Shown here: one piece after another, positions 1,607 through 32,531 of the stretch
Numbering within the stretch: the stretch's first letter is position 1
Layout: every line of letters starts with the position of its first letter
Assembly: GCA_963703345.1 (NCBI GenBank)
Contig: OY969814.1
Location: 1,440,001-1,504,000 of the forward strand
DNA: 64,000 nt
DNA from: an uncultured Chloroflexia bacterium
GTDB lineage: Bacteria; Chloroflexota; Dehalococcoidia; DSTF01; JALHUB01
Reading direction: 5' to 3'
The notes under the pieces: generated by a model
What the model was told of the DNA's origin: nothing
The model's database searches: none
The model's input: the letters and a program-made list of their open reading frames with translations, nothing else
Program-made: the position numbers and the translations under genes

Positions 1607-1814
1607 GACGTTCCTCCTTCTTCTTGAGTCCGTCGATCAAGAATGCTGAGTTTAGTCTAGGAGCTGCGCATGCAGCGGACGTGAGTTTTGCGGTGTTAAC
1701 GTGAAGGAAGGGTGAAGGCGAAGGCGGTTGGTGCAAGTTCGTCGTTCTGATAGGATCGCGGCGGAAGGGAAGCGGCCTTCCTCTTGTGAAGGAGGCCGAA
1801 CGAGTGGAAATACG

Positions 1815-4800
1815 CGGTTGAGGTGGCGGACTGTCTGAGCACCCTGCGGACACAGCTAATCACCGGTTCTCCTACCGGCCGGCCCTGGACGGCATCCGAG
1901 CCCTGGCGGTAGCGGCCGTTCTTGCCTACCACGGCAACCTGCCCTGGGCGAAAGGCGGCTTCCTTGGCGTAGATGCCTTCTTCGTCCTGAGCGGCTATCT
2001 AATCACCAGCCTTCTACTGCTGGAGTGGCGTACGCGGGGGAAGATCTCGCCGATAGCGTTCTGGTCGCGGCGGGCGAGGCGACTTCTTCCCGCACTTTTC
2101 CTGATGCTCATAGGCGTCGCCTTCTACGCCGTTGTCTTTGCTGCGCCGCAGGAGCTGGCGAAGATACGAGGCGATGCGCTGGCCACCATCGCCTACGTCG
2201 CCAACTGGCGGCCCGTCTTTAGCGGCCAGTCGTATTTCGATCAGTTCTCCATGCCGTCACCACTCAGGCATACATGGTCGCTGGGAATAGAGGAGCAATA
2301 CTACGCCTTCTGGCCGTTGCTTCTCCTCCTCGTCCTGAAGATCAAGAAGATCACCCTGGGCAAGCTGATGCTGGGGACGATTGTGGCCGCGGCCTGCTCT
2401 GCCCTGCTCATGGCGCTTCTCTTTCATCCCGGCGTCAACCCCTCGCGCGTCTACTACGGCACCGACACGCGTGCCCAATCGCTATTCGTAGGCGCTACCC
2501 TCGCCGTCCTTCTCCTGCGGCTGGGGCCGATAGAGGGCCGAATTGGCTGGCCTGCCCTACAGGGAGCGGGCCTCGCGTTTGCGGCGATAGTCGCCTTCAT
2601 CTGGCTGAGGACGACAGAGAGCAGCGACCTTCTGTATCGGGGCGGCTTCTTCTTCCTGGCCCTGAGCGTAGCCGTCGTCATAGCGGCCTCCGTGCAGCCG
2701 AAGGCGGGACCTGTAGGCAAGCTCCTCTCGCTGCCGCCTTTGCGGGCCCTGGGGCTCATCTCCTACGGTGTCTACCTCTGGCACTGGCCGATCTTCTTGA
2801 TGCTGACGCCGGGTCGCGTCCACCTGGGGCTGTACGAGCTCTTTGCCCTGAGGGTGGCCGTCACCCTTGCCGTGTGCACCCTTTCCTACCACCTGCTGGA
2901 GATGCCGATAAGGCGGGGCGCCTTTCGAGGCCGCAAGATCACCTGGAGCTTCGCCCCGGCGGGCGCCGCCTGCCTGGCCGTGGCGCTGGTCGTCGTGACG
3001 AGGGGGCCCACGGGACCGGGCGCGTACGCCGTGAACACGCCCGACGTGATGCCGACGCAGGCACAAGGAGGGAGCCAGCCGCCCATCCGCGTCATGGTCT
3101 TCGGTGAGTCAGTCGCTTTCTCGTTGGATTCGGGGATGCAGGAGGTGGCACCAGAGTACAATCTCTCCGTCTGGAACCGGTCGACCCTTGGCTGCGGATT
3201 CTCGGATGTGGATTCGGAAATGAGCTTGACCGGCGAAAGCGGCAAGCAGGCGGCGGACCGGTGCAAGGAGTGGCGCCAGTCGTGGCAGCAGGACCTGACG
3301 GCCTTCAATCCCGATATCGTCCTCATGGTTTTCGGGGCCTGGGACAGCGAAGACCGTGTCGTCGGCGGCAAGACGCTTGCCGCCGGTAGCCCCGAATGGG
3401 CCGACTTTCTCTCGCAGTCGCTTGAGGAGAAGTTCGAGATATTGACGGCAGGCGGAGCAAAGCTGATGCTGGCCACCTTCCCCTATACGAGGCCGTGGGT
3501 CTGGTCGACTCTATCGAATGGAGATGAGCTCGAGCAGAGCACGCGACGGCGGGAAGCAGCGCTAAACGACATCTACCGCGAGTTCGCAGCGCAGCATCCA
3601 GACAAGGTCGTGCTGGTTGAGTTCAACGCGTTTGCCTGCCCCGGCGACAAGTATAGCGATCTCTATATCGACGGTGTCAGGATGCGCCAGGACGGCGTCC
3701 ACTTCACAACCGGAGGCTCGACCGTCGTTGCCCGCTGGCTGGCGCCGCAGATCGTCGCTGCCGCGGGGAGGCCCGCTCAATGAGGCCCGCCGCCTGAGCT
3801 TCACGCAAGCAGCATCGACGCGGTATCATCAGCACGTCTTTGGATGAATCGTGCGGTTGAGGTGGCGAACTGTCTGCTGAACAGGCTTCGGATGCGGCTA
3901 GTCATCGCTTCTCCTACCGGCCGGCCTTAGACGGCATCCGAGCCCTGGCGGTAGCGGCCGTCCTCGCCTACCATGGCAACCTGCCCTGGGCGAAAGGCGG
4001 CTTCCTTGGCGTCGATGCCTTCTTCGTCCTGAGCGGCTATCTAATCACCAGCCTTCTACTGCTGGAGTGGCGTACGCGGGGGAAGATCTCGCCGATAGCG
4101 TTCTGGTCGCGGCGGGCGAGGCGACTTCTTCCCGCACTTTTCCTGATGCTCATAGGCGTCGCCTTCTACGCCGTTGTCTTTGCCGCGCCGCAGGAGCTGG
4201 CGAAGATACGAGGCGATGCGCTGGCCACCATCGCCTACGTCGCCAACTGGCGGCCCGTCTTTAGCGGCCAGTCGTATTTCGATCAGTTCTCCATGCCGTC
4301 ACCACTCAGGCATACATGGTCGCTGGGAATAGAGGAGCAGTACTACGCCTTCTGGCCGTTGCTTCTCCTCCTCGTCCTGAAGATCAAGAAGATCACCCTG
4401 GGCAAGCTGATGCTGGGGACGATTGTGGCCGCGGCCTGCTCTGCGTTGCTCATGGCGCTTCTCTTTCATCCCGGCACCGACCCCTCGCGCGTCTACTACG
4501 GCACCGACACGCGTGCCCAATCACTATTCGTAGGCGCTACCCTCGCCGTCCTTCTCCTGCGGCTGGGGCCGATAGAGGGCCGGATTGGCTGGCCTGCCCT
4601 ACAAGGAGCCGGCCTGCTTTTCGCGGGAGTAGTCGCCTTCATCTGGCTGAGGACGACAGAGAGCAGCGACCTTCTGTATCGGGGCGGCTTCTTCTTCCTG
4701 GCGTTGAGCGTAGCCCTCGTCATAGCCGCCTCCGTGCAGCCGAAAGCGGGACCTGTAGGCAAGCTCCTATCGCTGCGTCCTTTGCGGTCCCTGGGGCTCA

Positions 4801-5045
4801 TCTCCTACGGCGTCTACCTCTGGCACTGGCCGATCTTCTTGATGCTAACGCCGGGTCGCGTCCATCTGGGGCTGTACGAGCTCTTTGCTCTGAGGGTTGT
4901 CGTTACCCTTGCCGTGTGCACCCTTTCCTACCACCTGCTGGAGATGCCGATAAGGCGGGGCGCCTTTCGAGGGAAGAAGATCACCTGGAGCTTCGCCCCG
5001 GCGGGCGCCGCCTGCCTGGCCGTGGCGCTGGTCGTCGTGACGCGG
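1815..5045 (+). repeat. Tandem duplication, about 1815-3005 nearly identical to about 3854-5045 (membrane-domain halves of the two acyltransferases)
   Basis: Direct sequence comparison shows only scattered substitutions, with divergence after ...GTCGTCGTGACG. Confidence 0.9.
1831..3783 (+). CDS. OafA/OatA-like O-acyltransferase (Acyl_transf_3 + SGNH domain), copy 1; probable CTG start
   Basis: YRPALDGIRALAV, GGFLGVDAFFVLSG, HTWSLGIEEQYY; C-terminal GES...DGVH SGNH motifs; frame open back to TGA at 1819. Confidence 0.9.
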   Translation: MSEHPADTANHRFSYRPALDGIRALAVAAVLAYHGNLPWAKGGFLGVDAFFVLSGYLITSLLLLEWRTRGKISPIAFWSRRARRLLPALFLMLIGVAFYAVVFAAPQELAKIRGDALATIAYVANWRPVFSGQSYFDQFSMPSPLRHTWSLGIEEQYYAFWPLLLLLVLKIKKITLGKLMLGTIVAAACSALLMALLFHPGVNPSRVYYGTDTRAQSLFVGATLAVLLLRLGPIEGRIGWPALQGAGLAFAAIVAFIWLRTTESSDLLYRGGFFFLALSVAVVIAASVQPKAGPVGKLLSLPPLRALGLISYGVYLWHWPIFLMLTPGRVHLGLYELFALRVAVTLAVCTLSYHLLEMPIRRGAFRGRKITWSFAPAGAACLAVALVVVTRGPTGPGAYAVNTPDVMPTQAQGGSQPPIRVMVFGESVAFSLDSGMQEVAPEYNLSVWNRSTLGCGFSDVDSEMSLTGESGKQAADRCKEWRQSWQQDLTAFNPDIVLMVFGAWDSEDRVVGGKTLAAGSPEWADFLSQSLEEKFEILTAGGAKLMLATFPYTRPWVWSTLSNGDELEQSTRRREAALNDIYREFAAQHPDKVVLVEFNAFACPGDKYSDLYIDGVRMRQDGVHFTTGGSTVVARWLAPQIVAAAGRPAQ

Positions 5046-5840
5046 GGGGCTGTATCGCCGGCGGGCGCGTTCGACCTCGGGCAACCCGCGGACGCGCCGA
5101 TGCCGACGGCGGCAAGTACAGGCGAGCGGCCGCCTATTCGCGTCATGGTGCTCGGGGAATCCGTCGCGATGCTGCTCGATCCCGGCCTGAGCGACGTTGG
5201 ACGGCAATCAAACGTGGCGGTCTGGAACCGGGCCGCCGTGGGCTGCGGCTTCCTCGACCTGGAGGTATGGCATGATGCGCAGGGGAATCTCTCCAAGGCG
5301 GAGGCAGAGAAGTGCGCGGAGTGGCACCAATCATGGGCGCAGGACGTGGCGGGCTTCAAGCCGGACGTCGTCCTCATGGCGTTCGGCGTCTGGGATAGCG
5401 AGGACATCCAGACTTCCGGCGGCAAGCTGCTGGCTGGCACGCCGGAGTGGAACGTCTACGTCCACGACGGCCTGGAGAAGCGTTTCGTCACCCTCACGTC
5501 GCAGGGCGCGAAGCTGATACTGACGACCTTTCCCTATGTGCGACCGGGCCTATGGGACCTCGTCTCCAACGGGCAGCAAATCACCGACGACAGCGCCCGC
5601 CACATGGACGCCCTCAACGCTGTCTACCGAGGCTTCGCCGCCGAGCACCCCGGGCAGGTGTTCATCGCGGACCTGAACGCCTTCGCCGACCCGGAAGGGA
5701 AGTACACGGACCTCCACGTCGACGGCGTGAGGATGCGTGAGGACGGCGTCCACTTCACCACGGAAGGGTCATACGTGGTGGCGCGCTGGCTGGTCCCTAA
5801 GATCGCAGCCGTCGCCGGCGCGACACGCCCCGCAAGCTGA
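3870..5840 (+). CDS. OafA/OatA-like O-acyltransferase (Acyl_transf_3 + SGNH domain), copy 2; probable CTG start
   Basis: Same motifs as copy 1; frame open back to TGA at 3858. Confidence 0.9.
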   Translation: MSAEQASDAASHRFSYRPALDGIRALAVAAVLAYHGNLPWAKGGFLGVDAFFVLSGYLITSLLLLEWRTRGKISPIAFWSRRARRLLPALFLMLIGVAFYAVVFAAPQELAKIRGDALATIAYVANWRPVFSGQSYFDQFSMPSPLRHTWSLGIEEQYYAFWPLLLLLVLKIKKITLGKLMLGTIVAAACSALLMALLFHPGTDPSRVYYGTDTRAQSLFVGATLAVLLLRLGPIEGRIGWPALQGAGLLFAGVVAFIWLRTTESSDLLYRGGFFFLALSVALVIAASVQPKAGPVGKLLSLRPLRSLGLISYGVYLWHWPIFLMLTPGRVHLGLYELFALRVVVTLAVCTLSYHLLEMPIRRGAFRGKKITWSFAPAGAACLAVALVVVTRGAVSPAGAFDLGQPADAPMPTAASTGERPPIRVMVLGESVAMLLDPGLSDVGRQSNVAVWNRAAVGCGFLDLEVWHDAQGNLSKAEAEKCAEWHQSWAQDVAGFKPDVVLMAFGVWDSEDIQTSGGKLLAGTPEWNVYVHDGLEKRFVTLTSQGAKLILTTFPYVRPGLWDLVSNGQQITDDSARHMDALNAVYRGFAAEHPGQVFIADLNAFADPEGKYTDLHVDGVRMREDGVHFTTEGSYVVARWLVPKIAAVAGATRPAS

Positions 5841-5984: not shown

Positions 5985-6081
5985 GTCGCCGGGTCCGAGA
6001 CGAGTTGCGGGGCTGCGCGGGTCATCGCTATACTTGGATGCGATGCGGGGGTAGCTCAGCGGTAGAGCTCCTGCCTTCCAA
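5985..6081 (+). repeat. 97-bp direct repeat copy 1 (tRNA promoter plus 5' half of tRNA-Gly); copy 2 at 24418-24514
   Basis: GTCGCCGGGTCCGAGACGAG...GCCTTCCAA identical except one base (6049 G vs 24482 C). Confidence 0.95.
6005..6034 (+). promoter_or_regulatory. Sigma70-type tRNA promoter (also present in the copy at 24438-24467)
   Basis: TTGCGG-N18-TATACT ending 10 nt before tRNA position 1. Confidence 0.65.
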
Positions 6082-6085
6082 GCAG
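6045..6085 (+). pseudogene. 5' half of tRNA-Gly(UCC), att-site remnant
   Basis: GCGGGGGTAGCTCAGCGGTAGAGCTCCTGCCTTCCAAGCAG identical to 30227-30267; no T arm follows. Confidence 0.95.
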
Positions 6086-6182: not shown

Positions 6183-7063
6183 TTGAGCACATGCCATGAC
6201 CGAAAAAAGAACGTTCCGAAAGCGGCCCTAGACCCGCTTAACCGCCTCGCCCATCACTTGGGGCAGGCTGTCCAACTCCTCGAACTGTCCACCAAAGGAA
6301 TATCCGCTCTCGCAGCCACGCCGCAGGCCCTTCGGGCCCTAGCTGCCGCAAAGCCTACCTCAGACGTCGTAGCCGCTCAAACACGGCTTGGCACCGTGCA
6401 GAACCTCGCACAACTCGCCCAGACTGAAGTCGACACCGGTTTTCCCCTACTCTTCGCCCAAGCAACCTCTCCCTTTGGGCGGACTTAGAGAACGGCCTCC
6501 GCACCTTTCTCGCCGCGTGGTTGCATCATGAGAGCAGCGCCAAGACCATCGAGGCGATCCAGAAGTTGAAGGTGTCCTTGGGGGAATACGAAGCGATGGA
6601 CTCCGACGAACGTTGCCTCTACATCATTGACCGCCTGCAACAAGAAATGGAATCACGCAATCGCCGTGGCATAGACAGATTCGAGTTGCTTTTCGCGGCC
6701 TTCGGCTTCGAAACTAGCCTTGACGAGCGCTTGAAGAGAGATCTTCTTGAGCTCTACTTTGTCCGCAATCTCCTCGTTCACCGCAGGGGCATCGCAGATC
6801 GCAAGTTCATCCAGTCGTGCCCCTGGCTCCGCCTCTCTGTCGGGGAACAAATCACCATAACGTCCGCAGCGTACAAGAAGTATACCCACGCGGTGCTCGC
6901 CTATGTGATCGAGCTCATTGTCCGTGTCGGCGCCCGGATCGGCATCACCCGCTCTCAACTCAGCGGCGTGCCCCACGCTTACCAGCCCCGTGAAGCCTCG
7001 CTCACGTCGGCTTCCTCGTCTAAGCCAGTGAAGCCCGTCGCGAAGAATCGCTCCCGCCCGTGA
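6183..7063 (+). pseudogene. HEPN-like protein, apparently frameshifted near 6465 (and possibly in the A6 run at about 6203)
   Basis: ORF 6183-6488 (...FPLLFAQAT) continues in the frame of 6521-7063 (LSLWADLENGLRTFLAAWLHH...); RNLLVH is an Rx4H HEPN motif. Confidence 0.65.
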
Positions 7064-7169
7064 CCCGTCAGCTTGGGTACCACGACCCGCACGTCAAGGG
7101 TTTCCGATGCTTGCGCCGCGTACCTGGTCCCGGCGAAACCTTGCCGACCCTCCACACTCCTGGTATCCT
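7035..7169 (+). repeat. Conserved ~130-bp noncoding hairpin/promoter element, copy A (copy B at 26412-26537)
   Basis: Shares AATCGCTCC-GCCCGTGA, CAGCTT-GGT, ACCCGCACGTCAAGGGT, CCGATG-TGCGCC; ends in TTGCCG-N17-TATCCT. Confidence 0.85.
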
Positions 7170-7199: not shown

Positions 7200-7343
7200 A
7201 TGTCACTCCTCGACATCTGGCGCCTGAACCCCGAACTCGCCGACAAGCGCGTCGATCAGATTATCGCCGTGGCGGGCTCCGGCAAGCTACGCGACCGCAG
7301 CGACGCCTCCCTCGAACTCCGCGAATTCCTCGCGACAGAGTGA
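7200..7343 (+). pseudogene. Truncated N-terminal fragment (47 aa) of a larger, probably restriction-endonuclease-like protein
   Basis: MSLLDIWRLNPELADKRVDQIIAVAGSGKLRDRSDASLELREFL lies behind a promoter and GAGG SD and ends abruptly; family assignment from recall only. Confidence 0.45.
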
Positions 7344-7415: not shown

Positions 7416-7444
7416 CGGGCCGGGCATTTCGCCCGGCCGTTTTC
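7416..7444 (+). terminator. Possible intrinsic terminator
   Basis: GGCCGGGC-ATTTC-GCCCGGCC followed by GTTTT. Confidence 0.45.
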
Positions 7445-7967
7445 ACCTCAGAGCGGCGACCATCTGCTTTCTAGGCAGAGGGTTTGCGCTCCTCTGCCGG
7501 CATTCGGCGGTCCTCGTTTGCCACTCACCGCTCTCTCCAGATACGCACGGGATGTTGGCGCCCCACAGGGACAATCTGAGATTGCGACTTGACTGCGCGC
7601 GTTTGCTCTTGACAGTCGGTGCGTGCCCGTTACAATTCGCACCATGGGGCAAAGCAGGGACGGCTGAGCCCCAAGCGCACCCCCGCCGCTGCGCGCTTCC
7701 AGTATCATCACCAGTCACGGTTCTCGCTCAGCCGTCCCTCTCATCCTAGAGCCGTCAGCAGCGCGCTCGTCAAGGAGAGTGCTAGGGACTTGACATGGGC
7801 TCACAACGGAGCGTCACCGGGGGACAACTTAAGGCTGCGGATGCGCTACGGCATCTAGCCTTGCCAGAGGGCGCGGTTCGTCTGACATCGTCAGCCAGTC
7901 CGCGTGAAACGCCTGATCAAGGCGATGGAGCTTCTTCTGGGCTATCTGATGAGTCAAGAGAGCAGGA

Positions 7968-8745: not shown

Positions 8746-11574
8746 ATGGACTCCCTCGGATTCGTCAAGAAGTGGGCCGCCTCCACCCAAAGCGAAAGTG
8801 CGGCTGCGCAGGAGCATTTCATCGACCTCTGCCACACGCTGAATGAGGGCACGCCCAATGATGACCCCAGCGGCGATTACTTCGCCTTTGAGAAGGGCGC
8901 CAAGCGGCCCGACGGCGACGGATTCGCGGACGTATGGCTCAAGAACCACTTTGCCTGGGAGTACAAAGGCAAACACAAAGACCTGGGCAATGCTTACAAG
9001 CAAGTTCAGACGTATCGCGAGGCGCTGGGCAACCCGCCGCTGCTGGTGGTCTGCGATATAGAACGATTCGAGGTCCACACCAACTGGACGAATACGGAGA
9101 CCTGGATCTACCGCTTTCGTAACGCCGACATCGCCCTGGACGAGCCGGTTGAAGTCACCACCTACGGCGGGCCCGCTGCCGACGCCCCGAAGCTCACCGC
9201 CCTGCAAGTCCTGAAGGCGCTTTTCGAGGAGCCGGAGCGCCTGAAGCCCCTGCGGACCACGGAGCAAATCACGCAGGAAGCCGCCAAGCTCTTCGGCCGC
9301 ATCACTGACGACCTGCGCAAATGGAAGGTGGAGGACATGCGCATCGCTCGCTTCGTAACGCGGGTGATGTTCTGCATGTTCGCAACGGACGTGGGCCTTC
9401 TGCCGCGCGAGACCTTCAGCGAGGTCATCAACGTCAACAAGGACGACCCCGCCGCATTCCGCGAGAACCTGTCGGCGCTGTTCGGCGTCATGGCGGAAGG
9501 CGGCAAGTTCCTCATGCACCCCGTTCCCCACTTCAACGGCCGCTTGTTTGAGGACAGCGACGTGCCCGACGAGATCCACGGCGAGCATGTGCGTGTGCTG
9601 GAAGACCTCAACGACCTCAACTGGGCGGATGTCGAACCGGTAATCTTCGGCACCCTGTTCGAGCGGGTCATCGACCCCGCTCAGCGCAGGCGGATCGGCG
9701 CGCACTACACGTCCCGCGCGGATATCGAGCTGATCGTTGAGCCGGTGCTGATGGCGCCCCTCAGACGCGAGTGGGACCAGATCAAGGCGGCGGCAGAGGA
9801 CCTGGCGGAGAACGCGGCTTCGCGGCGGCGCATCGCCCGAGCGCTGCAGACGTTCCATGAGCGGCTGGCAACCATCCGCGTCCTTGACCCAGCCTGTGGC
9901 TCCGGCAACTTCCTCTACGTCTCCCTGGCTCTTCTCAAGGCTCTCGAAAAAGAGGTTGTCGCCTTCGCGTCGTTGCATGACATTGCGCTCGTCCCGCGCG
10001 TTCACCCGCGCCAACTGATGGGCCTGGAGATCAGCGAGTACGCGCGCGAGCTGGCGTCCATAGTCATCTGGATAGGTTACCTGCAGTGGAAGCACCGCAA
10101 CGTGATGCCATTCGACGACGAGACTCCGATCTTGCAGCCGCTGGACCAAATCGCGTTCGGAGATGCCATCGTTGACCTCTCGGACCCCAGCCGGCCGCGC
10201 ATCCCTGAGTGGCCGGAAGCGGACGTAATCGTGGGCAACCCGCCGTTCCTCGGCGGCAAGCTCCTGCGCCGGCACCTGGGCGACGAATACGTTGACAAGT
10301 TGTTCGCCGCCTGGGACGGGCAGGTGGCTCGTGAGTCCGATCTCTGCTGCTACTGGTTCGAGCAGGGCCGCCGCGCCGTCGAAGCAGGCCGCGCCAGACG
10401 CGTGGGGCTTCTTGCCACTCAAGCGATCCGGGGCGGGGCCAACCGGCGCGTTCTGCAACGGATCAAGGAGACCGGCGACATCTTCTACGCTCAGGCCGAC
10501 CGCAAGTGGATACAGGACGGAGTTGCGGTCCGTGTCGCAATGATAGGGTTCGATGACGGCAGTCAACAGGAACGACTGCTGAACGAAGAGAAGGACGACG
10601 CGCCGGAACACGCCCTAGCACACGCCCGCCGCGTGTCCCAAATGAACGCCAACTTGACCTCTGCCGCGGACGTGACGAAGGCGCGACGCCTCGAAGAGAA
10701 TCTGGGTATTTCTTTCATGGGCGACACGAAGGTAGGGCCGTTTGAGATACCGGAGGCAAGAGCCAAAGAGATGCTGGGCAAGCCCAACCCGCACGGCAGA
10801 CCAAACTCAGATGTGGTGCGTCCTTGGGTGAACGGCTTGGATATCACGAGACGCCCACGGCACATGTGGATCATTGATTTCCCTCCCGGCACCAGCGAGA
10901 GCGAAGCTGCCCTCTACGAGGCGCCATTCGAGTACATCAAGAAATACGTTAAGCCCTTCCGAAAAAAGGCGCGGTCGGGGGACAGGACGGGAGTCGCGTG
11001 GTGGATACACCAGAGACCGCGACCGGAGTTGCGGGCGGCGCTCGAAGGGCTTCCACGGTATATTGCCACCACCCGCGTTGCGAAGTACCGCTCGTTTGTA
11101 TGGCTGACACCTGCCGTGTTGCCGGACTGCCGCCTTATCGCGTTTGCCCGCGCGGACGACTACTTCTTCGGCGTCCTGCATTCGCGGGCCGACGAAGTGT
11201 GGGCTTTGCTCCTAGGCAGCCAGCTTGAGTCGCGCCCGCATTACACGCCGACGACTTCCTTCGAGACGTTCTCGCTCCCGCACCCGACACCGAGTCAAAA
11301 GGCCGCGATCGCTGAGGCGGCGCGGGAACTCGATGAGCTGCGCCAGGCCTGGCTCAACCCGCCGGAGGACAACATTGCTCCCAGCGAGTTAAGGAAGCGC
11401 ACCCTAACCAACCTCTACAACCAGCGCCCCACATGGCTGGCAAACGCGCATCGCAAGCTGGACGAGGCGGTGTTCGCGGCATACGGCTGGCCGGAGTCGC
11501 CTGACGCGCTGTCGGACGCCGAAATCGTCAAGCGCCTGCTTGCGCTGAACCTGCAGCGGGAGGCGGTTGAGTAG
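8746..11574 (+). CDS. MmeI-like (type IIG/IIL) fused restriction endonuclease / N6-adenine methyltransferase
   Basis: N-terminal AD...EYK nuclease motif, GAHYTS, DPACGSGNF (motif I), GNPPF (motif IV), C-terminal RTLTNLYN...HRKLDEAV. Confidence 0.93.
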   Translation: MDSLGFVKKWAASTQSESAAAQEHFIDLCHTLNEGTPNDDPSGDYFAFEKGAKRPDGDGFADVWLKNHFAWEYKGKHKDLGNAYKQVQTYREALGNPPLLVVCDIERFEVHTNWTNTETWIYRFRNADIALDEPVEVTTYGGPAADAPKLTALQVLKALFEEPERLKPLRTTEQITQEAAKLFGRITDDLRKWKVEDMRIARFVTRVMFCMFATDVGLLPRETFSEVINVNKDDPAAFRENLSALFGVMAEGGKFLMHPVPHFNGRLFEDSDVPDEIHGEHVRVLEDLNDLNWADVEPVIFGTLFERVIDPAQRRRIGAHYTSRADIELIVEPVLMAPLRREWDQIKAAAEDLAENAASRRRIARALQTFHERLATIRVLDPACGSGNFLYVSLALLKALEKEVVAFASLHDIALVPRVHPRQLMGLEISEYARELASIVIWIGYLQWKHRNVMPFDDETPILQPLDQIAFGDAIVDLSDPSRPRIPEWPEADVIVGNPPFLGGKLLRRHLGDEYVDKLFAAWDGQVARESDLCCYWFEQGRRAVEAGRARRVGLLATQAIRGGANRRVLQRIKETGDIFYAQADRKWIQDGVAVRVAMIGFDDGSQQERLLNEEKDDAPEHALAHARRVSQMNANLTSAADVTKARRLEENLGISFMGDTKVGPFEIPEARAKEMLGKPNPHGRPNSDVVRPWVNGLDITRRPRHMWIIDFPPGTSESEAALYEAPFEYIKKYVKPFRKKARSGDRTGVAWWIHQRPRPELRAALEGLPRYIATTRVAKYRSFVWLTPAVLPDCRLIAFARADDYFFGVLHSRADEVWALLLGSQLESRPHYTPTTSFETFSLPHPTPSQKAAIAEAARELDELRQAWLNPPEDNIAPSELRKRTLTNLYNQRPTWLANAHRKLDEAVFAAYGWPESPDALSDAEIVKRLLALNLQREAVE

Positions 11575-24417: not shown

Positions 24418-24514
24418 GTCGCCGGGTCCGAGACGAGTTGCGGGGCTGCGCGGGTCATCGCTATACTTGGATGCGATGCGGCGGTAGCTCAGCGGTAGAG
24501 CTCCTGCCTTCCAA
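24418..24514 (+). repeat. 97-bp direct repeat copy 2, containing a second tRNA-Gly 5' half (24478-24514); attL of the 5.7 kb element
   Basis: GCGGCGGTAGCTCAGCGGTAGAGCTCCTGCCTTCCAA; identity to the tRNA stops right after the anticodon loop; G5-to-C change. Confidence 0.95.
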
Positions 24515-24681
24515 ACAGTTGTTCGCAAGCGCTGTCCGTCAAACTCGCGAACTCTCACCGAAAACCCCACAGTTATCGACTGTCCCATAGTGTCTTCCAG
24601 CGACACCTCGATTTCGGCAAGTGGCGTCTCATCCACGCAAACATAACTGACCCTGCTATTTGTCCGTACAATGCTGGCCCC

Positions 24682-24763: not shown

Positions 24764-25162
24764 TTGGACCGCGGCACAATAGCCCTACTCGCTATCGGGG
24801 CGGGTTTCCTGCTCTTAACGGCCTTCCTATCGAACCTCCCCCAGCTACTGCGCGGCATCTCCCGTCTCGGCGCGCTACTCGAAGACACGCTCTTCCTCGC
24901 CGACGCCCATCAATTCGAACAGGAACTTGACAATCTCTTCTCTGGGTTCGACCCCGGCACCGAGAGAGCAAACACCATCCAAACCGTGAACGCCGAGCGA
25001 AAACGCGCTGACGATGCCTTGACGGACGCTCTCCCGCCCGAATACCGCTGCCCCTACTGCTCCGGAGTCATGCGGAGGCGCACCGGAAGACACGGTCCCT
25101 TCTATGGCTGCAGCAACTACCCGCAGTGCCGTTATACCAAGGATTCACCCCTCACATCTTGA
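24764..25162 (+). CDS. Membrane-anchored protein with topoisomerase-type C4 zinc finger
   Basis: N-terminal hydrophobic helix; CPYCSGVMRRRTGRHGPFYGCSNYPQC. Confidence 0.8.
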   Translation: MDRGTIALLAIGAGFLLLTAFLSNLPQLLRGISRLGALLEDTLFLADAHQFEQELDNLFSGFDPGTERANTIQTVNAERKRADDALTDALPPEYRCPYCSGVMRRRTGRHGPFYGCSNYPQCRYTKDSPLTS

Positions 25163-25163
25163 A

Positions 25164-26399
25164 ATGAGAGAGAAATACCAACGCCGCCTTGCCGAACTCC
25201 GCGACTTGCTCTCCCAACTTCACACGGAGCGCGTGCAATTTGATGCCTACGTGGCCCAGGCCCGGAGGGGATTCCAGGCTTATCTATCTGACCAAAAGCT
25301 AGATTTGCACGCGTCCCGCCAGCTACTGACGTCCCACGAAAAGCAATTCCGCGACAAACAGGAAGCCGTTGAGAAACGGCTTCGCGCGAGAGAAGACGCC
25401 CTTGAGCAACTCACCCAACAGAAGACAGAAGGCTTCCCCTGGCTAGCCCAAGCGTATGCCGAGTTTCTCCGCTTGCAGGATAAGAAAGACGAATCATCCT
25501 TGAGAACCAAAACACGCCCGGCCATCAAGGCTGCGGACACCCTTAGGGAAGCATCACGGGCAAAGCGAACGGCTGAGAAGAAGGCAAAGGTCCTCGAGTA
25601 TGTACTCAGATACTACGAAGCACTCTTCCCTTGGCTTTCCGACCTTAGAGGCGAGGACGTTGATGACCTTCTAATCGCCATCACGACGGAGAAACAGCAA
25701 GAGGCTGACACAGAAGTCGAAGACGCCGCACGGCAATGGCTCACAGAGGCAGAGTATTCCTCCTTACCGGTTGCCGAGAAATGCCAGCTTGCGCTAGACC
25801 GCTATTGGAAAGGCAGAAAGCGCCCTTGGCAGCTCGGTAGGGATTACGAGAGATATGTCGGCTTCCGCTACGAAGAGCAGGGCTTTGCAGTGTACTACCA
25901 AGGCATCGTCGAGGGGCTAGAGGATCTAGGTCGCGATCTGTTAGCCACCAAAGGCAATTGTGTAGATGTTGTTCAGTGCAAGTACTGGTCCAAAGACAAA
26001 ACGATACACGAGAAACACGTCAATCAGCTCTTTGGCACGGCGATGGCCTACCGGATAGATCATCCGGATAAAGAGGTCATTCCGGTCTTTTACACTTCCA
26101 CCTGTCTGTCGCCTAGGGCCAAGCAGTTCGCTGACATGCTCAGTGTAACGTATTTCGAGAATGCCCCTCTGTCCCCGTACCCCTGCATTAAATGCAACGT
26201 CTCACGCAAGGATGGCACGAAGATATACCATTTGCCCTTCGACCAACAGTATGACCGCACTATCATCGAACAAGAGCGACTTGAGTGCTACGTTGAGACC
26301 GTCGCAGAGGCCGAAGCTCTGGGCTTCCGCCGAGCATTCCGCTGGAGGGGTGGACAGACTACTGCTGGATCTTCCGAGGCACCAAACCCTGGCCACTGA
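25164..26399 (+). CDS. Coiled coil + Mrr-like PD-(D/E)xK restriction endonuclease with small C-terminal metal-binding-like domain
   Basis: GRDYERYVG...DLGRDLL...VVQCKYW (Mrr-type QxK); IKCNVS...IYHLP...EAEALGFRRA tail. Confidence 0.82.
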   Translation: MREKYQRRLAELRDLLSQLHTERVQFDAYVAQARRGFQAYLSDQKLDLHASRQLLTSHEKQFRDKQEAVEKRLRAREDALEQLTQQKTEGFPWLAQAYAEFLRLQDKKDESSLRTKTRPAIKAADTLREASRAKRTAEKKAKVLEYVLRYYEALFPWLSDLRGEDVDDLLIAITTEKQQEADTEVEDAARQWLTEAEYSSLPVAEKCQLALDRYWKGRKRPWQLGRDYERYVGFRYEEQGFAVYYQGIVEGLEDLGRDLLATKGNCVDVVQCKYWSKDKTIHEKHVNQLFGTAMAYRIDHPDKEVIPVFYTSTCLSPRAKQFADMLSVTYFENAPLSPYPCIKCNVSRKDGTKIYHLPFDQQYDRTIIEQERLECYVETVAEAEALGFRRAFRWRGGQTTAGSSEAPNPGH

Positions 26400-26411
26400 G
26401 CCTCTAAGGGG

Positions 26412-26537
26412 CCGTCGCAGAAATCGCTCCGGCCCGTGAACTGCAGCTTCGGTTCCCGCACCCGCACGTCAAGGGTCCCGATGGCTGCGCCACGCGCTTC
26501 ACGCGCCCTTGACCCGCTACCCAGTTACCCCTACCCT
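26412..26537 (+). repeat. Conserved noncoding hairpin/promoter element, copy B; candidate single-strand origin or ssDNA promoter
   Basis: GTCAAGGG(26468)...CCCTTGAC(26513) inverted repeat whose right arm is the -35 of TTGACC-N17-TACCCT. Confidence 0.75.
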
Positions 26538-26647
26538 CAGGTAAGTGAACATCCGCCACCAGAGCCCGCGCGAGTACGCTGCCACAACGCGAGCTCAACA
26601 AGAAACCGCCGCCTCATCTATCTGAAGAAGAGGGGTACACTACACGC

Positions 26648-27238
26648 GTGTCTGGCGATAGTACCGACGACCTCAGGCCAACTATTAAGGTCACAGCCGT
26701 CATACTCCTGGAGGTCCTGGGATCCGTTCTGCTGGCAGTCGCAGCTCCATGGAAGCAACATCGCCAACTGATCGTAGTCGGAACCTTCGACCAGCTACTT
26801 GGGGTATTCCTTCTTGCATGGCCTGACCTGGAAAACCAAGCTCTCAGGGCATTTACGGTAAGCCGCCGCGCCTGGGCCAATTTCGTACGTTGGTACCCGA
26901 CAGCTTGGCGACGAGCACGAGAGGAAGTCAAATGGTGGTTCCGGCAACGCGCTGAGACGGCGGCCAACTGGTATCGCCAGCTCAGAGGCCGGCCACGATC
27001 AATGACCGTCAGACTTCCGCCAGCGACGCTTCACCTTAGCGCTGGCGTATCTGCCACGTTAACACGCGGCGGAACAATAGCTGATAGGCTCCAACGCCTC
27101 GAAAACGACGTCGCCCGACTCCCAGCTCAATGGCGAAATGACATGATCAATCTGCGCGATAGGCGCGTCCAACTCCGCTGGTATGGAGTGCCATTAATCC
27201 TGACCGGGGTCGTTCTTCTCAGTTGGGCGACCTGGTAG
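26648..27238 (+). CDS. Hypothetical membrane protein (element cargo)
   Basis: Three hydrophobic segments; GAGGGG SD; downstream of the element promoter. Confidence 0.6.
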   Translation: MSGDSTDDLRPTIKVTAVILLEVLGSVLLAVAAPWKQHRQLIVVGTFDQLLGVFLLAWPDLENQALRAFTVSRRAWANFVRWYPTAWRRAREEVKWWFRQRAETAANWYRQLRGRPRSMTVRLPPATLHLSAGVSATLTRGGTIADRLQRLENDVARLPAQWRNDMINLRDRRVQLRWYGVPLILTGVVLLSWATW

Positions 27239-28250
27239 CCCAGCTTCGTACAGCGGGCACCTTGCCAGGCTCGGCTTCCCGTCCTTTAGCCGCGCCTTCT
27301 AGCATCGTCCGGTGCTTAGATTTCAATCTTGACTCACCGCTCTTCACCGTTTCCAGCAAGAAGCCAATGTCGCCCCCATCGTCCTTAACGATCATAGCCG
27401 CAGTGGGACCACACGTAGTCTTAAACCACTTTCGCCTCTGTTCGAGAGTCGGCAAAGGTTTCGGAGCATACACCCCCTGTTCTTTCTCAGCTGAGCCTAC
27501 CAGTGCCTCGAACCAGCCCAAGCGTGGGCAGCGCCTCGGCTTCTCATCAACTGTCCGATCCACGAACTCGACCATCTGCAGCAGCCGTTCTGCCCACACC
27601 TTTCCCCAACGCTCAAGAACGAGCCTCTTCAGCATTCTTTCCGCTGCGTCGTCACGTACTTGGAGCTCCCATCTCGTAGCCGGAATGAGCCCTCCGCTTT
27701 GCTCGTCCTTGTCATAGACTCGCAACTTCTGCCTTGAGCCCTTGCCCCCTCCATATACGGTCATCCCGCCATGAAGCGTTTCGTCACGAGTCCAGTTCCC
27801 TTCGAGGATGTGTGACGACCAGTCTCCCCTATCCAGTGCTTCCCATACGTCCTTGGCTCGAACAATCTTGTTGAAGTCGTCCGCTGCCAAGTCGATTCGC
27901 GAGGCCTTCGCCCCTTTTGCGTCGAGCCACCCTAGAAGACCGCGCATCTGCGCTTCCTCCATCGACTGGCAGATATCGCCCTTTAGCTGCACATGGATTT
28001 CCGGCCTGTGTGCCGACCACATGATGGCCGCGCCACCAGGCGCGATTCTCTGATTCTCATAGTAGGAATTCCCCCGCTCAGCTGTTGTGAAATCGAACCC
28101 GATGTATCCTGACACCACCCTCTCGACTTCCCGCAGCTCCACTTCCCAGAGGCTGGGCTCGAGCCAATCAACAGAGAACACCAATGGATTTTCTGCCCCC
28201 CTGTTAGTACGCTGGGGGCAGCTGGCCGCGTCGCGATCAGCTTCGCTCAT
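27219..28250 (-). CDS. Rep_trans-family replication initiator / MOBT relaxase
   Basis: SVDWL, SRIDLAADD, TVYGG, LRVYDK (catalytic Tyr), RWELQ motifs. Confidence 0.9.
   Translation of the reverse strand: MSEADRDAASCPQRTNRGAENPLVFSVDWLEPSLWEVELREVERVVSGYIGFDFTTAERGNSYYENQRIAPGGAAIMWSAHRPEIHVQLKGDICQSMEEAQMRGLLGWLDAKGAKASRIDLAADDFNKIVRAKDVWEALDRGDWSSHILEGNWTRDETLHGGMTVYGGGKGSRQKLRVYDKDEQSGGLIPATRWELQVRDDAAERMLKRLVLERWGKVWAERLLQMVEFVDRTVDEKPRRCPRLGWFEALVGSAEKEQGVYAPKPLPTLEQRRKWFKTTCGPTAAMIVKDDGGDIGFLLETVKSGESRLKSKHRTMLEGAAKGREAEPGKVPAVRSWATRSPN
28194..28220 (-). other. nic site hairpin (oriT / double-strand origin)
   Basis: Minus strand TGCCCCCAGCGTACTAACAGGGGGGCA matches the C-run/CTAACA/G-run nic of ICEBs1 and Tn916, inside the 5' end of the relaxase gene. 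Confidence 0.85.
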
Positions 28251-28489
28251 CGCTTCCGCCGCCTTGCTTTCACGGACGCCAATGCTAGGCGCGCGAAATG
28301 CGCCTTGCGCGCCGCCTCGGCGCGCAAAGCGCGTTCGTTCGCCGGGAGCTTGCCCTCTGGGTCAATCAGGCGCTCGAAGCGCGATTCGAAGGCCGCTCGT
28401 GCGGGAGCAGTCGCTGCCGCCCTATCTCCCGTACCAGCCCACCGAGTGTATGACGCTATTCGCGCTCTGAGACTCACTTCGCCGCTCAT
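28247..28489 (-). CDS. Small basic conserved hypothetical protein of integrative elements
   Basis: SLRARIASYTRWA..DR.AATAPARAAF..RFE..IDPEG; ATGA overlap with rep. Confidence 0.75.
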   Translation of the reverse strand: MSGEVSLRARIASYTRWAGTGDRAAATAPARAAFESRFERLIDPEGKLPANERALRAEAARKAHFARLALASVKARRRKR

Positions 28490-28588
28490 CGTCCAACCAG
28501 CCCACAAACCCAATCGGCCACCTTCGACATGCATCGAAGATAGCCGACGCCCTGACCTAGCGGCGCATCGAAAACGCCCGTTATTCGA

Positions 28589-29176
28589 TCAGACCTGTTT
28601 TACGCTCGCCACCCCCTCTGCCAACTCCTGAGGCAAACCGTTCAAGCAGTATGGGCAGTACTTTGACTCGTGTGCTCTTTTCCCCCGCGCCGCTCCCGCC
28701 CTCGCCTTCACACGCTCATCCATCTCTCCCCAAGTATCTACGACTCGCCTGATCCACTTGATATTGCACGCCTTCAGCATCGTCACAATCAGGTCGTAAT
28801 CAGTCACCCCCTCTTTCTCACGAAGATGAGCAATTAGCATGTCCACCCCCGACCCCTTCCTCCTGCCGGACCGCACCGGTCCTGCTTCCGCGATCGAGGC
28901 CAACAACTCTTCTTCCCGCCCCTTCGCTTTGGCCCAATTCGATACTATCTCCCATTCTCCGTTCTCGTTGAGCCCCGCCACCAGGAAATTCCCCGATACG
29001 CTCGCCACCCAAAGCGAGAATCGCCATAGAGGCAGCGCTTGAATCTCCTCCAACGTGAACTCTGTCGGCTCCTCAAGCGACAGCGTCTTGTTGAAGTATT
29101 TCTTACTCTGAATCGGCAGGAGTTTCCGCCTCAGCTGAATCCGGTAGCGAATGAACAGGCCGTCCGACCTAGTCAC
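28589..29176 (-). CDS. Hypothetical protein coupled to the integrase
   Basis: GTGA overlap with integrase stop; C-terminal CPYC. Confidence 0.65.
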
Positions 29177-30120
29177 AGCCTGTCTCCTAAGCCTAGACGT
29201 CGATGCGCCGCTTGAGCCCGCTCGTCAGCTGTCGAAGCTGCGTACCGCTGAACCATCGTTCGCGAGCGCCAGCCAGTGAGACGCATTAGGTCGCCCTCCG
29301 TACCGCCCTGCGAGAGCCAATCATGGGCGAACGTATGCCGCAACTGATGAGGGTGAATGTCACCCAATCCAGCCTGCCGGCCACGCTGCTTTATCATCTG
29401 GTAAATGCCCGTGTCGCCAAACTGACCCTTATGACCCACCCATAGCCAAGGTGATGACGCTGAAGGATGCTGCTTGCGCTTCCTCAGATAACGGTCAAGG
29501 GCCTTCACAGCCTTCGCTCCGATAGGTAGCACCCGCTCCCGTCGCCCCTTCCCAAGAACCCGGATCAAGCCCCTATCTAGGTCAACGTCGCTATTCTCCT
29601 CATCTTTGGCGTTGTACCGCAAACCGCCAATTTCCGCTCGACGCGCACCGGTGTCGATGAAAATGCGCAGTATCGCCGTGTCGCGCCGGTCCTCCAAACT
29701 GCCGCCCTTTTCACACGTTGCCAGCAGCGCTTTCAACTCCTCCTCGCGCAGCACAGGCGGAGGGTTCTCAGGGACCCGAGGCGGCTTCATCTTTGCCATC
29801 GGTGACTCCCTAACCTCGCCCTCTTCATCCAGCCACTTGAAGAACGATTGTAGTCCGCGATATCGATTGTTCGCTGTCGCAGGCTTCCACCGCTCCAACA
29901 AGTAGGCAATGAAACTCTCAACATGCTCTCGCCGAATCTTCGCTACCTCTTGCGGCATTCCCTGATCAGCTAGGAATCCGGCCAACTGCCGCGCGCTCTC
30001 CAGGTACGTGTCAATCGTCCTTGCAGACAGATTCTCCGCCCGTAGATGGCGCCCAAAGCTCTCGATGTTACCTACGATATCGCCCTGTGCTATACTTCTT
30101 GCGGCTATGGACTCGCGCAT
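29173..30120 (-). CDS. Tyrosine recombinase / integrase
   Basis: TGARRAE (R), GKGRRER (K), HPHQLRH (HxxR), LTGW...MVQRY (Y); AGGAG SD; TTGACG-N18-TATAAC promoter at 30186-30157. Confidence 0.95.
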
Positions 30121-30226
30121 CTGCCACTCCTATCGCTAGCTCTCGCACTTGCGCTAGTTATAGGGTATTCGAGCGGTGTTCGTCAAGAGGAAATCAGTTA
30201 GAGACTGTAGCCAGCTTCGAAAGCGA

Positions 30227-30301
30227 GCGGGGGTAGCTCAGCGGTAGAGCTCCTGCCTTCCAAGCAGGATGTCGCGGGTTCGAACCCCGTCCCCCGCTCC
30301 A
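30227..30301 (+). tRNA. tRNA-Gly(UCC), intact, CCA encoded
   Basis: Cloverleaf: GCGGGGG/CCCCCGC acceptor stem, CCTGC-CTTCCAA-GCAGG anticodon arm, GGTTCGAACC T loop, TCCA end. Confidence 0.97.
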
Positions 30302-32486: not shown

Positions 32487-32531
32487 CTTCCAAGCAGGAT
32501 GTCGCGGGTTCGAATCCCGTCCCCCGCTCCA
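32487..32531 (+). pseudogene. 3' half of tRNA-Gly(UCC), att-site remnant
   Basis: CTTCCAAGCAGGATGTCGCGGGTTCGAATCCCGTCCCCCGCTCCA equals 30257-30301 except one T-loop base. Confidence 0.95.

What the first reader, a model, noticed from the sequence alone, without database searches (positions are those of the whole stretch)
7035..7169. Conserved hairpin-promoter element between cargo genes in both islands (second copy 26412-26537)
Seen: two diverged ~130-bp copies sharing ACCCGCACGTCAAGGGT exactly. Each forms a GTCAAGG...CCTTG(A/C)C inverted repeat whose right arm is the -35 of a 17-bp-spaced promoter for the next gene. Both lie downstream of the first cargo unit after a tRNA 5' half, while the flanking genes are unrelated. 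Inference: the left island starts with a decayed sister of the rep element, and the motif is a fixed backbone part, either a single-strand origin/Frpo-like ssDNA promoter or a recombination point that lets defence cargo be swapped.
Basis: partly seen in the sequence, partly recalled or inferred. Interest (0 to 1): 0.7.

Follow-up and report, generated by a model that had tools for sequence, protein, structure and literature searches.

The report
Second-strand origin of rolling-circle islands
The two repeats are copies of a conserved, roughly 120-base folded DNA element that travels with small tRNA-inserting mobile islands carrying rolling-circle replication genes, and it likely acts as a promoter on single-stranded DNA that would prime copying of the second strand; the left copy is a decayed remnant.

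Summary
The repeat is real (86 bp, 80%, E 1.6e-12) and not genome-wide: two copies plus one partial in 2.28 Mb. It is a backbone part of small tRNA-integrating elements in this likely Chloroflexota lineage (23 of 93 genomes), with covarying stems. A TTGACG-16-CAnnnT reads on the rep coding strand in 29 of 35 copies; the rightward one occurs in 8 of 24. The nick site lies elsewhere, in rep (28196-28218). The motif occurs in 8 of 9 elements with a rolling-circle initiator, Rep_trans or HUH, always on the rep strand even where the integrase is inverted. It occurs in 0 of 28 other loci with the same integrase family. Best reading: an RNA-polymerase-dependent single-strand origin (about 70%, untested). 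Many orphan copies end inside the motif and are fused to host promoters, so it also marks a breakpoint hotspot. The left copy is decayed. The scan had not seen this sequence but noted analogous candidates in unrelated elements.

The parts
26409..26514 (-). Motif copy 2 (intact element): candidate single-strand origin, functional strand predicted to be minus (rep coding strand)
26409..26435 (.). Hairpin A of copy 2
26445..26450 (-). -10-like hexamer (GAAGCT; family nAnnnT, mostly C at -12), predicted unpaired
26467..26472 (-). -35 hexamer TTGACG on the left arm of hairpin B
26506..26514 (.). Right arm of hairpin B (pairs with the -35); also the -35 of a possible rightward dsDNA promoter with -10 at 26532-26537
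7033..7146 (-). Motif copy 1, decayed (hairpin A 7033-7059 with broken outer stem; -10-like 7070-7075; -35 7092-7097; right arm 7139-7146)
7164..7169 (+). Rightward -10-like TATCCT, 17 bp after the right arm of copy 1
28196..28218 (-). Predicted nick site (dso): CT/AA in a G/C hairpin at the 5' end of rep
27219..28250 (-). Rep_trans rolling-circle initiator, 343 aa
28247..28534 (-). Small conserved backbone ORF (phrog_2842), found upstream of rep in both Rep classes
28589..29176 (-). 195-aa ORF, no family; homologue in L114
29173..30120 (-). Tyrosine integrase
30227..30301 (+). tRNA-Gly(TCC), full gene at the right end of the element
24418..24518 (+). Host-type promoter region plus tRNA-Gly 5' half (left end of the intact element); 98% identical to 5985-6085
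5985..6085 (+). Host-type promoter region plus tRNA-Gly 5' half (left end of the decayed unit)
25104..26399 (+). Cargo with Mrr_cat restriction-endonuclease domain, upstream of copy 2
26648..27238 (+). 196-aa cargo ORF between motif and rep, no family
6196..7063 (+). Frameshifted cargo gene upstream of copy 1; intact 289-aa paralogue at G000 2203354-2204223
7200..7343 (+). 47-aa truncated ORF downstream of copy 1

Best explanation
The motif is a conserved, covarying folded element that sits on the rep coding strand of small tRNA-integrating rolling-circle elements, and it likely works as an RNA-polymerase-dependent single-strand origin that would prime second-strand synthesis. Shown from sequence: hairpin A, a 15-17-nt spacer, and hairpin B, whose outer stem pairs a TTGAC(G/A/T) hexamer with its complement around inner hairpins of variable length (loop 30-88 nt); a nAnnnT hexamer at promoter distance on the rep strand; and a separate CT/AA nick site in rep. 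Inferred: after excision Rep nicks the minus strand at about 28205 and displaces it. The strand folds so that the -35 is duplex and the -10 is single-stranded. Host RNA polymerase binds this pre-opened promoter and copies the right arm to make a plus-strand RNA starting near 26540, which DNA polymerase extends round the circle. C at -12 and the 16-nt spacing would keep the site weak once the DNA is duplex. The same RNA could transcribe the gene to the right. The left copy is a non-functional remnant, whose right arm may survive as an ordinary -35.
For: Covariation on 23 copies: 84% of cells paired, 30 cells with two-sided changes, 0 of 500 shuffles, slid controls 32-45% paired. Leftward TTGAC-15/17-nAnnnT in 29 of 35 copies against a 9% background, spacer 16 in 19 of 29, C at -12 in 24 of 29; host tRNA promoters have T at -12 in 11 of 14 and mostly 17-18 spacing. 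It is also present in 12 of 15 copies found later with the model. The nick site matches the published Rep_trans/MOBT CT'AA hairpin, lies on the same strand, and is conserved in L043, L064 and L065, so the motif is not the dso. The motif is kept when Rep_trans is replaced by HUH REP_ORF2-G2P initiators (L116, L139, L061 above the Pfam cut-off; L114 below it, E 1.5e-4). Its position varies (upstream of rep in L114 and L116, downstream in the rest), but its strand follows rep in 8 of 8 cases. In L139 the integrase and tRNA ends are inverted relative to rep, and the motif follows rep. A strict descriptor hits 8 of 9 rolling-circle elements and 0 of 28 other loci of the same integrase family (212 kb). 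Among integrase-ascertained elements it is 6 of 7 against 0 of 10 with other replication or prophage modules (Fisher p 6e-4, kin not independent). Fixed orientation with flexible position is the published behaviour of sso (PMC5703833); ICEBs1 sso1 lies just downstream of its Rep_trans-type relaxase (PMC4595007).
Against: No experiment and no RNA data. The Rep_trans element L063 has no recognisable motif. Folding energy does not pick a strand once composition is controlled (minus lower z in 14 of 23), and G-T versus A-C counts are even (36 against 30). The spacer between -35 and -10 is not consistently paired, unlike the long Frpo stems. The -35 core is mostly invariant rather than covarying (1 of 12 outer-stem pairs with a two-sided change). 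The rightward -10 is also above background (8 of 24, p 0.005). The model and descriptor were built from some of the same elements, so only L139 is a clean out-of-sample case, and the 12 of 15 figure is partly circular. Many copies come from one lineage. Most copies now have no rep nearby. For HUH elements the nicked strand is assumed, not tested.
Confidence: 0.7

Rival explanations
1. The motif is a pair of ordinary divergent dsDNA promoters. A leftward one makes an antisense or small RNA through hairpin A into the upstream cargo (hairpin A acting as terminator), and a rightward one drives the next gene.
For: Both arms are good -35 hexamers; TAnnnT at 17 bp on the right in both window copies and a few others; hairpin A often follows a cargo stop codon; folding gives no strand preference.
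Against: It does not explain the covarying inner hairpins and variable 30-88-nt loop between the arms, the restriction to rolling-circle elements, or the strand tied to rep rather than to cargo or integrase. The leftward -10 has C at -12 and a short spacer, unlike host tRNA promoters.
Confidence: 0.12
2. The motif is primarily a recombination site (attC-like ssDNA hairpin or homology anchor) for exchanging defence cassettes.
For: 20 of 61 anchored copies lack the right arm (one at a contig end). Seven are fused within 300 nt of a full tRNA with no int or rep between. The same hairpin-A remnant before valS (name recalled) carries three different upstream genes in three genomes. Staphylococcal sso contain the recombination site RSB (PMC5703833).
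Against: Junctions are spread from just after hairpin A to beyond the right arm, with no fixed crossover. There are no long cassette arrays, at most 1-5 copies per genome. The motif is absent from sister integrase elements without a rolling-circle Rep. 22 loci were fished with hairpin A, which biases towards right-side truncations.
Confidence: 0.08
3. The motif is a single-strand signal with another main job: an Frpo-like promoter for early expression of the gene to its right, or a packaging or transfer signal for a helper.
For: It has the same geometry as an sso. Frpo elements drive leading-gene expression (PMC9849209). A gene follows the right arm in the same direction in the window and several relatives.
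Against: In L043 and L066 the right arm runs straight into the convergent 3' end of rep, and in L114 and L116 into the end of the small backbone ORF, so there is nothing to express. No capsid or transfer genes were seen in the motif-bearing elements.
Confidence: 0.08
4. The motif is the double-strand origin or a Rep-binding site.
For: It is a hairpin linked to rep.
Against: A canonical nick site lies 1.7 kb away in rep, and the motif is shared by unrelated Rep families.
Confidence: 0.02

Closest known systems
RNA-polymerase-dependent single-strand origins of rolling-circle plasmids (ssoA, ssoU, ssoT, ssoW; PMC5703833, passages read)
   Same: Non-coding folded element, fixed orientation on the displaced strand, flexible position relative to rep, lineage-restricted, associated with recombination junctions (RSB).
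   Different: No sequence match in plasmid or phage collections (best E 0.1-0.5). About 120 nt with a near-consensus -35 in the stem. Found on chromosomally integrated elements of a likely Chloroflexota host. RSB and CS-6 sequences were not tested.
sso1 of ICEBs1 (PMC4595007, passages read)
   Same: Lies downstream of a Rep_trans/MOBT-family gene whose 5' region holds a CT'AA nick site, in an integrative element.
   Different: These elements are 4-7 kb with no conjugation genes seen, and the same motif serves HUH initiators too. No direct sequence comparison with sso1 was run.
Frpo ssDNA promoter of F and related plasmids (PMC9849209, PMC11541004, passages read; Masai and Arai 1997 not read)
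   Same: A stem-loop that rebuilds -35 and -10 geometry on ssDNA and is predicted to be off in duplex form.
   Different: Much shorter; only the -35 region is reliably paired; -12 is usually C; tied to a rolling-circle initiator rather than to a plasmid leading region.
IMEs and CIMEs with RCR-type initiators (PMC5704250, passages read)
   Same: Tyrosine integrase, tRNA target, Rep_trans or other RCR initiator, cargo, tandem decayed units.
   Different: Here the decayed units repeat the host-type tRNA promoter with the tRNA 5' half and often end inside the motif, which plain att-site accretion does not predict.

Membership tests
RNAP-dependent single-strand origin | Lies on an element with a rolling-circle initiator and a separate dso | tested here: met
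   Rep_trans and nick site in the window; 8 of 9 RCR elements against 0 of 28 other loci
RNAP-dependent single-strand origin | Fixed orientation on the nicked/displaced strand | tested here: met
   Promoter-bearing strand equals the rep strand in 8 of 8, including inverted L139; the nicked strand is inferred from CT/AA for Rep_trans and assumed for HUH
RNAP-dependent single-strand origin | Conserved secondary structure | tested here: met
   z -3.6 and -6.7 for L043 and L064; not met for window copy 1
RNAP-dependent single-strand origin | Structure specific to one strand | tested here: inconclusive
RNAP-dependent single-strand origin | Primer RNA synthesis and ssDNA-to-dsDNA conversion | not testable with these tools
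   needs in vitro priming or an in vivo ssDNA assay
ssoA/ssoU/ssoT/ssoW named classes | Sequence homology, RSB and CS-6 boxes | tested here: inconclusive
   no plasmid match better than E 0.1; RSB and CS-6 not searched
Frpo | Stem-loop carrying -35 and -10 boxes with their complements | tested here: inconclusive
   -35 paired; -10 region and spacer not consistently paired
Frpo | Sequence similarity to F Frpo and location in a conjugative leading region | tested here: not met
   no significant plasmid match; no transfer genes identified in the element
Integron attC-type recombination site | One fixed crossover point and one site per cassette in arrays | tested here: not met
   junctions scattered across the motif; 1-5 copies per genome
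Rep_trans/MOBT dso | CT'AA in the loop of a G/C hairpin | tested here: not met
   single match in the window, at 28196-28218, not in the motif
Known Rfam RNA/ssDNA family | Match to a covariance model | tested here: not met
   no hit at E up to 1 over either copy or over four relatives' copies

The most novel reading that the evidence does not exclude
The single-strand origin doubles as the right-hand boundary of an integrase-independent cargo-capture process. Rolling-circle replication from the still-integrated element runs out through cargo, the tRNA 5' half and the host promoter. Second-strand fragments stall in the motif's hairpins and are joined to host promoters. This builds tandem 'host promoter - tRNA half - defence cargo - motif' arrays and drops defence genes in front of housekeeping genes, so an sso acts as the engine of defence-island growth in this lineage.
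Probability: 0.25. Interest if true: 0.7.

Novelty: new variant of a known kind. Interest (0 to 1): 0.46.

Why it matters
Single-strand origins are known mostly from Firmicute plasmids, coliphages and F-like plasmids, and are hard to find by sequence. This is a compact, alignable candidate from an uncultured lineage, with a clear prediction: duplex -35, single-stranded nAnnnT -10, C at -12. It is shared by elements with unrelated initiators and can be tested in vitro with a 150-base oligonucleotide. It also marks an apparently undescribed family of 4-7 kb defence-carrying integrative rolling-circle elements and their remnants. If the breakpoint pattern is mechanistic, it would explain how defence cargo accumulates at tRNA loci after the replication and integration genes are lost. 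It remains a known kind of signal, so interest is moderate.

Tried and rejected
Genome-wide dispersed repeat: rejected (2 full and 1 partial copy). Rfam: no match. Related Rep loci by pattern scan: none confirmed in genome contigs (83 stretches) or viral contigs (34 stretches); the alignment query failed in genome contigs. Motif in viral contigs: 0. Plasmid and phage blastn: only chance-level hits. Exact-pattern scan of GTDB contigs: 10 hits. Three are titled Chloroflexia/Dehalococcoidia; the two others inspected (L129, L130) lie in apparently coding sequence without the architecture, and five were not inspected beyond weak model scores. The covariance model missed the diverged copies in L139 (no hit) and L065 (E 0.22), so 23 of 93 genomes is a lower bound. 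A loose descriptor gave 332 genome hits and was useless; the strict one gives 12 in 2.28 Mb and misses window copy 1. The raw folding preference for the minus strand (18 of 23) vanished after shuffling (14 of 23) and is not used. An extended in-register stem up to the -10, seen in L043, was not general. Sequencing runs: no RNA holder listed. Contigs of run X2 show joints from the motif to the tRNA (26520-30223) and to the nick site (26523-28190), but with only 20-23 letters on the short side, so they are weak. No excised-circle joint was listed (2 joints were not shown). Rep relatives were found in only 3 of 92 other genomes of the order and 1 of 400 of the class sample. Integrase loci: 29 were fetched; 6 weaker or short hits were left out; 21 of 29 were ORF-scanned (87 ORFs of 140-700 aa); several end at contig edges or were fetched on the wrong side. 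Literature searches for a description of this motif or element family listed nothing on it; most subscription papers are outside the library and no supplements were opened.

Full report
Observation. The shared 17-mer alone could be chance in 64 kb (about 0.7 pairs expected), but the copies align over 86 bp at 80% (E 1.6e-12). The 2.28-Mb genome holds only these two and a partial third at 2204193-2204224. Rfam has no match.

Setting. Copy 2 lies in a 5.8-kb element. Its order is: tRNA-Gly(TCC) 5' half (24478-24518), Mrr-domain cargo, motif, a 196-aa ORF, then on the minus strand Rep_trans, two small ORFs and a tyrosine integrase, and finally the full tRNA-Gly at 30227. Copy 1 follows a second tRNA 5' half, whose 60-bp upstream region is duplicated with it (5985-6085 and 24418-24518, 98%). 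Its cargo is frameshifted relative to an intact paralogue elsewhere in the genome, the next ORF stops after 47 aa, and the copy no longer folds better than shuffles. The host is likely Chloroflexota: three exact-pattern hits are titled Chloroflexia or Dehalococcoidia, and earlier notes on this genome say the same (unchecked).

The family. DNA searches found copies in relatives and 22 metagenome loci. A covariance model from 23 copies hit 23 of 93 genomes of the order, 1-5 times each. The anatomy is hairpin A, a spacer, and hairpin B, whose arms are GTCAA(G) and (C)TTGAC around inner hairpins. The loop is 30-88 nt and differs in sequence between host families. On the named structure, 84% of 709 cells pair and 30 show two-sided changes (0 of 500 shuffles; slid controls 32-45%). 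Most covariation is in hairpin A and the inner helices; the -35 core is largely invariant. Related sequences inflate these figures.

Which promoter is conserved. Reading leftward from the left arm, TTGAC(G) is followed at 15-17 nt by nAnnnT in 29 of 35 copies (background 9%), with spacer 16 in 19 and C at -12 in 24 of the 29. Two duplicate loci and the hairpin-A-only copies were left out of the 35. Host tRNA promoters have T at -12 in 11 of 14 and mostly 17-18 spacing. Fifteen later model hits gave 12 of 15 (partly circular because the model scores those columns). Sigma recognises A-11 and T-7 on the single non-template strand and T-12 as a base pair (PMC4593229, passages). Keeping A and T while replacing T-12 is therefore what a pre-opened promoter would show; this step is inference.

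Not the nick site. A CT/AA in a G/C hairpin occurs once in the window, at the 5' end of rep on the minus strand (28196-28218), and is conserved in L043, L064 and L065, with a variant in L063. It matches the published Rep_trans/MOBT nic (PMC9371924, passages). The displaced strand is therefore predicted to be the strand that carries the conserved -35/-10.

Link to rolling-circle replication. The motif is in Rep_trans elements (window, L043, L064, L065, and beside a rep remnant in L066). It is also in elements where the initiator is an HUH REP_ORF2-G2P protein (L116, L139, L061 over the cut-off; L114 at E 1.5e-4). It lies upstream of rep in two and downstream in six, always on the rep strand; in L139 the integrase and tRNA ends are inverted and the motif follows rep. 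L063 has no recognisable copy. A strict descriptor, which gives 12 hits in the whole genome, hits 8 of 9 rolling-circle elements and 0 of 28 other loci of the same integrase family. Ten of those 28 have identifiable other modules: primase-helicase, capsid-bearing satellites, Replic_Relax, prophage. Among integrase-ascertained elements the split is 6 of 7 against 0 of 10 (p 6e-4, kin not independent). The descriptor was written after seeing most positives, so L139 is the one clean prediction. Fixed orientation with free position is what is published for sso (PMC5703833, passages), and ICEBs1 sso1 lies directly after nicK (PMC4595007, passages).

Mechanism. Inferred: excision, nicking at about 28205, displacement of the minus strand, folding that makes the -35 duplex and leaves the -10 single-stranded, RNA polymerase priming of the plus strand from about 26540, and shut-off on duplex formation. 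Against: folding energy and wobble counts do not pick a strand, the spacer is not consistently paired, and there are no RNA or bench data (one search listed no RNA holder).

Breakpoints. A tRNA 5' half lies upstream in the same orientation in 17 of 36 copies with at least 4 kb of flank. Twenty of 61 anchored copies lack the right arm, and seven are fused within 300 nt of a full tRNA with no int or rep between. In L054 the host-type promoter and tRNA half are duplicated at 99% and the motif's left arm runs into the duplicate's -35. L063, L066, L068, L073 and the window show similar duplications. A hairpin-A remnant sits before the same housekeeping gene (valS, name recalled) in three genomes with three different upstream genes. 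Cargo is often defensive: 13 of 25 hand-picked proteins hit PADLOC. Junctions are scattered, not at one crossover, and 22 loci were fished with hairpin A, so this supports a hotspot and not a site-specific recombination point. Staphylococcal sso carry a comparable recombination site.

Comparison and novelty. It works like ssoA-type and Frpo-type ssDNA promoters but matches none by sequence and fails the Frpo, attC and dso membership tests. Searches listed no description of the motif or of these elements. I read passages of eight papers, listings only for the rest, and no supplements; subscription papers such as Masai and Arai 1997 were not seen. The scan's index had nothing for this sequence and several analogous sso candidates in unrelated elements. 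Verdict: real; a new variant of a known kind; single-strand origin about 70%; interest 0.46.

Noticed in passing
window 1814-3767 and 3853-5818: Tandem duplication (83% identity) of an acyltransferase-SGNH gene directly left of the left tRNA half; the same gene type lies beside the tRNA-Gly unit in L066, so the duplication may come from the same process.
   Followed up: partly
G000:C1:2237087-2241657: Sister remnant at tRNA-Gly(CCC): 5' half, unrelated cargo, integrase fragment, full tRNA; no motif copy.
   Followed up: partly
window 32487-32531 and G000 8434, 1028570, 1034300, 1062712, 1308649, 2277372: Many isolated tRNA-Gly 3'-half scars across the genome, pointing to a second class of elements at the 3' side.
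   Followed up: no
window 8746-11574: Type IIG (MmeI-like) restriction-modification gene in the left island; a similar gene is the first cargo of the HUH element L114 at the same tRNA.
   Followed up: partly
window 28247-28534: Small ORF (phrog_2842) conserved upstream of rep in both Rep_trans and HUH elements; function unknown, possibly an excision or replication accessory factor.
   Followed up: partly
L144, L149: The same integrase family drives capsid-encoding, primase/helicase-type satellites, so the integration module is shared across very different element types.
   Followed up: no
L064:1357-3511 and L145:576-2747: Two divergent integrases flank one tRNA gene, one for each side.
   Followed up: no
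L042, L043, L045, L049, L052, L053, L058, L061: A further conserved segment of about 60 nt lies just upstream of hairpin A in many metagenome copies, in several cases next to a DUF4389 gene; it could be an extension of the backbone.
   Followed up: no
window 7418-7574: A repeat with several copies in the genome, one directly after the tRNA-Gly(CCC) gene, lies just beyond the truncated ORF and may mark where another element interrupted the left unit.
   Followed up: no
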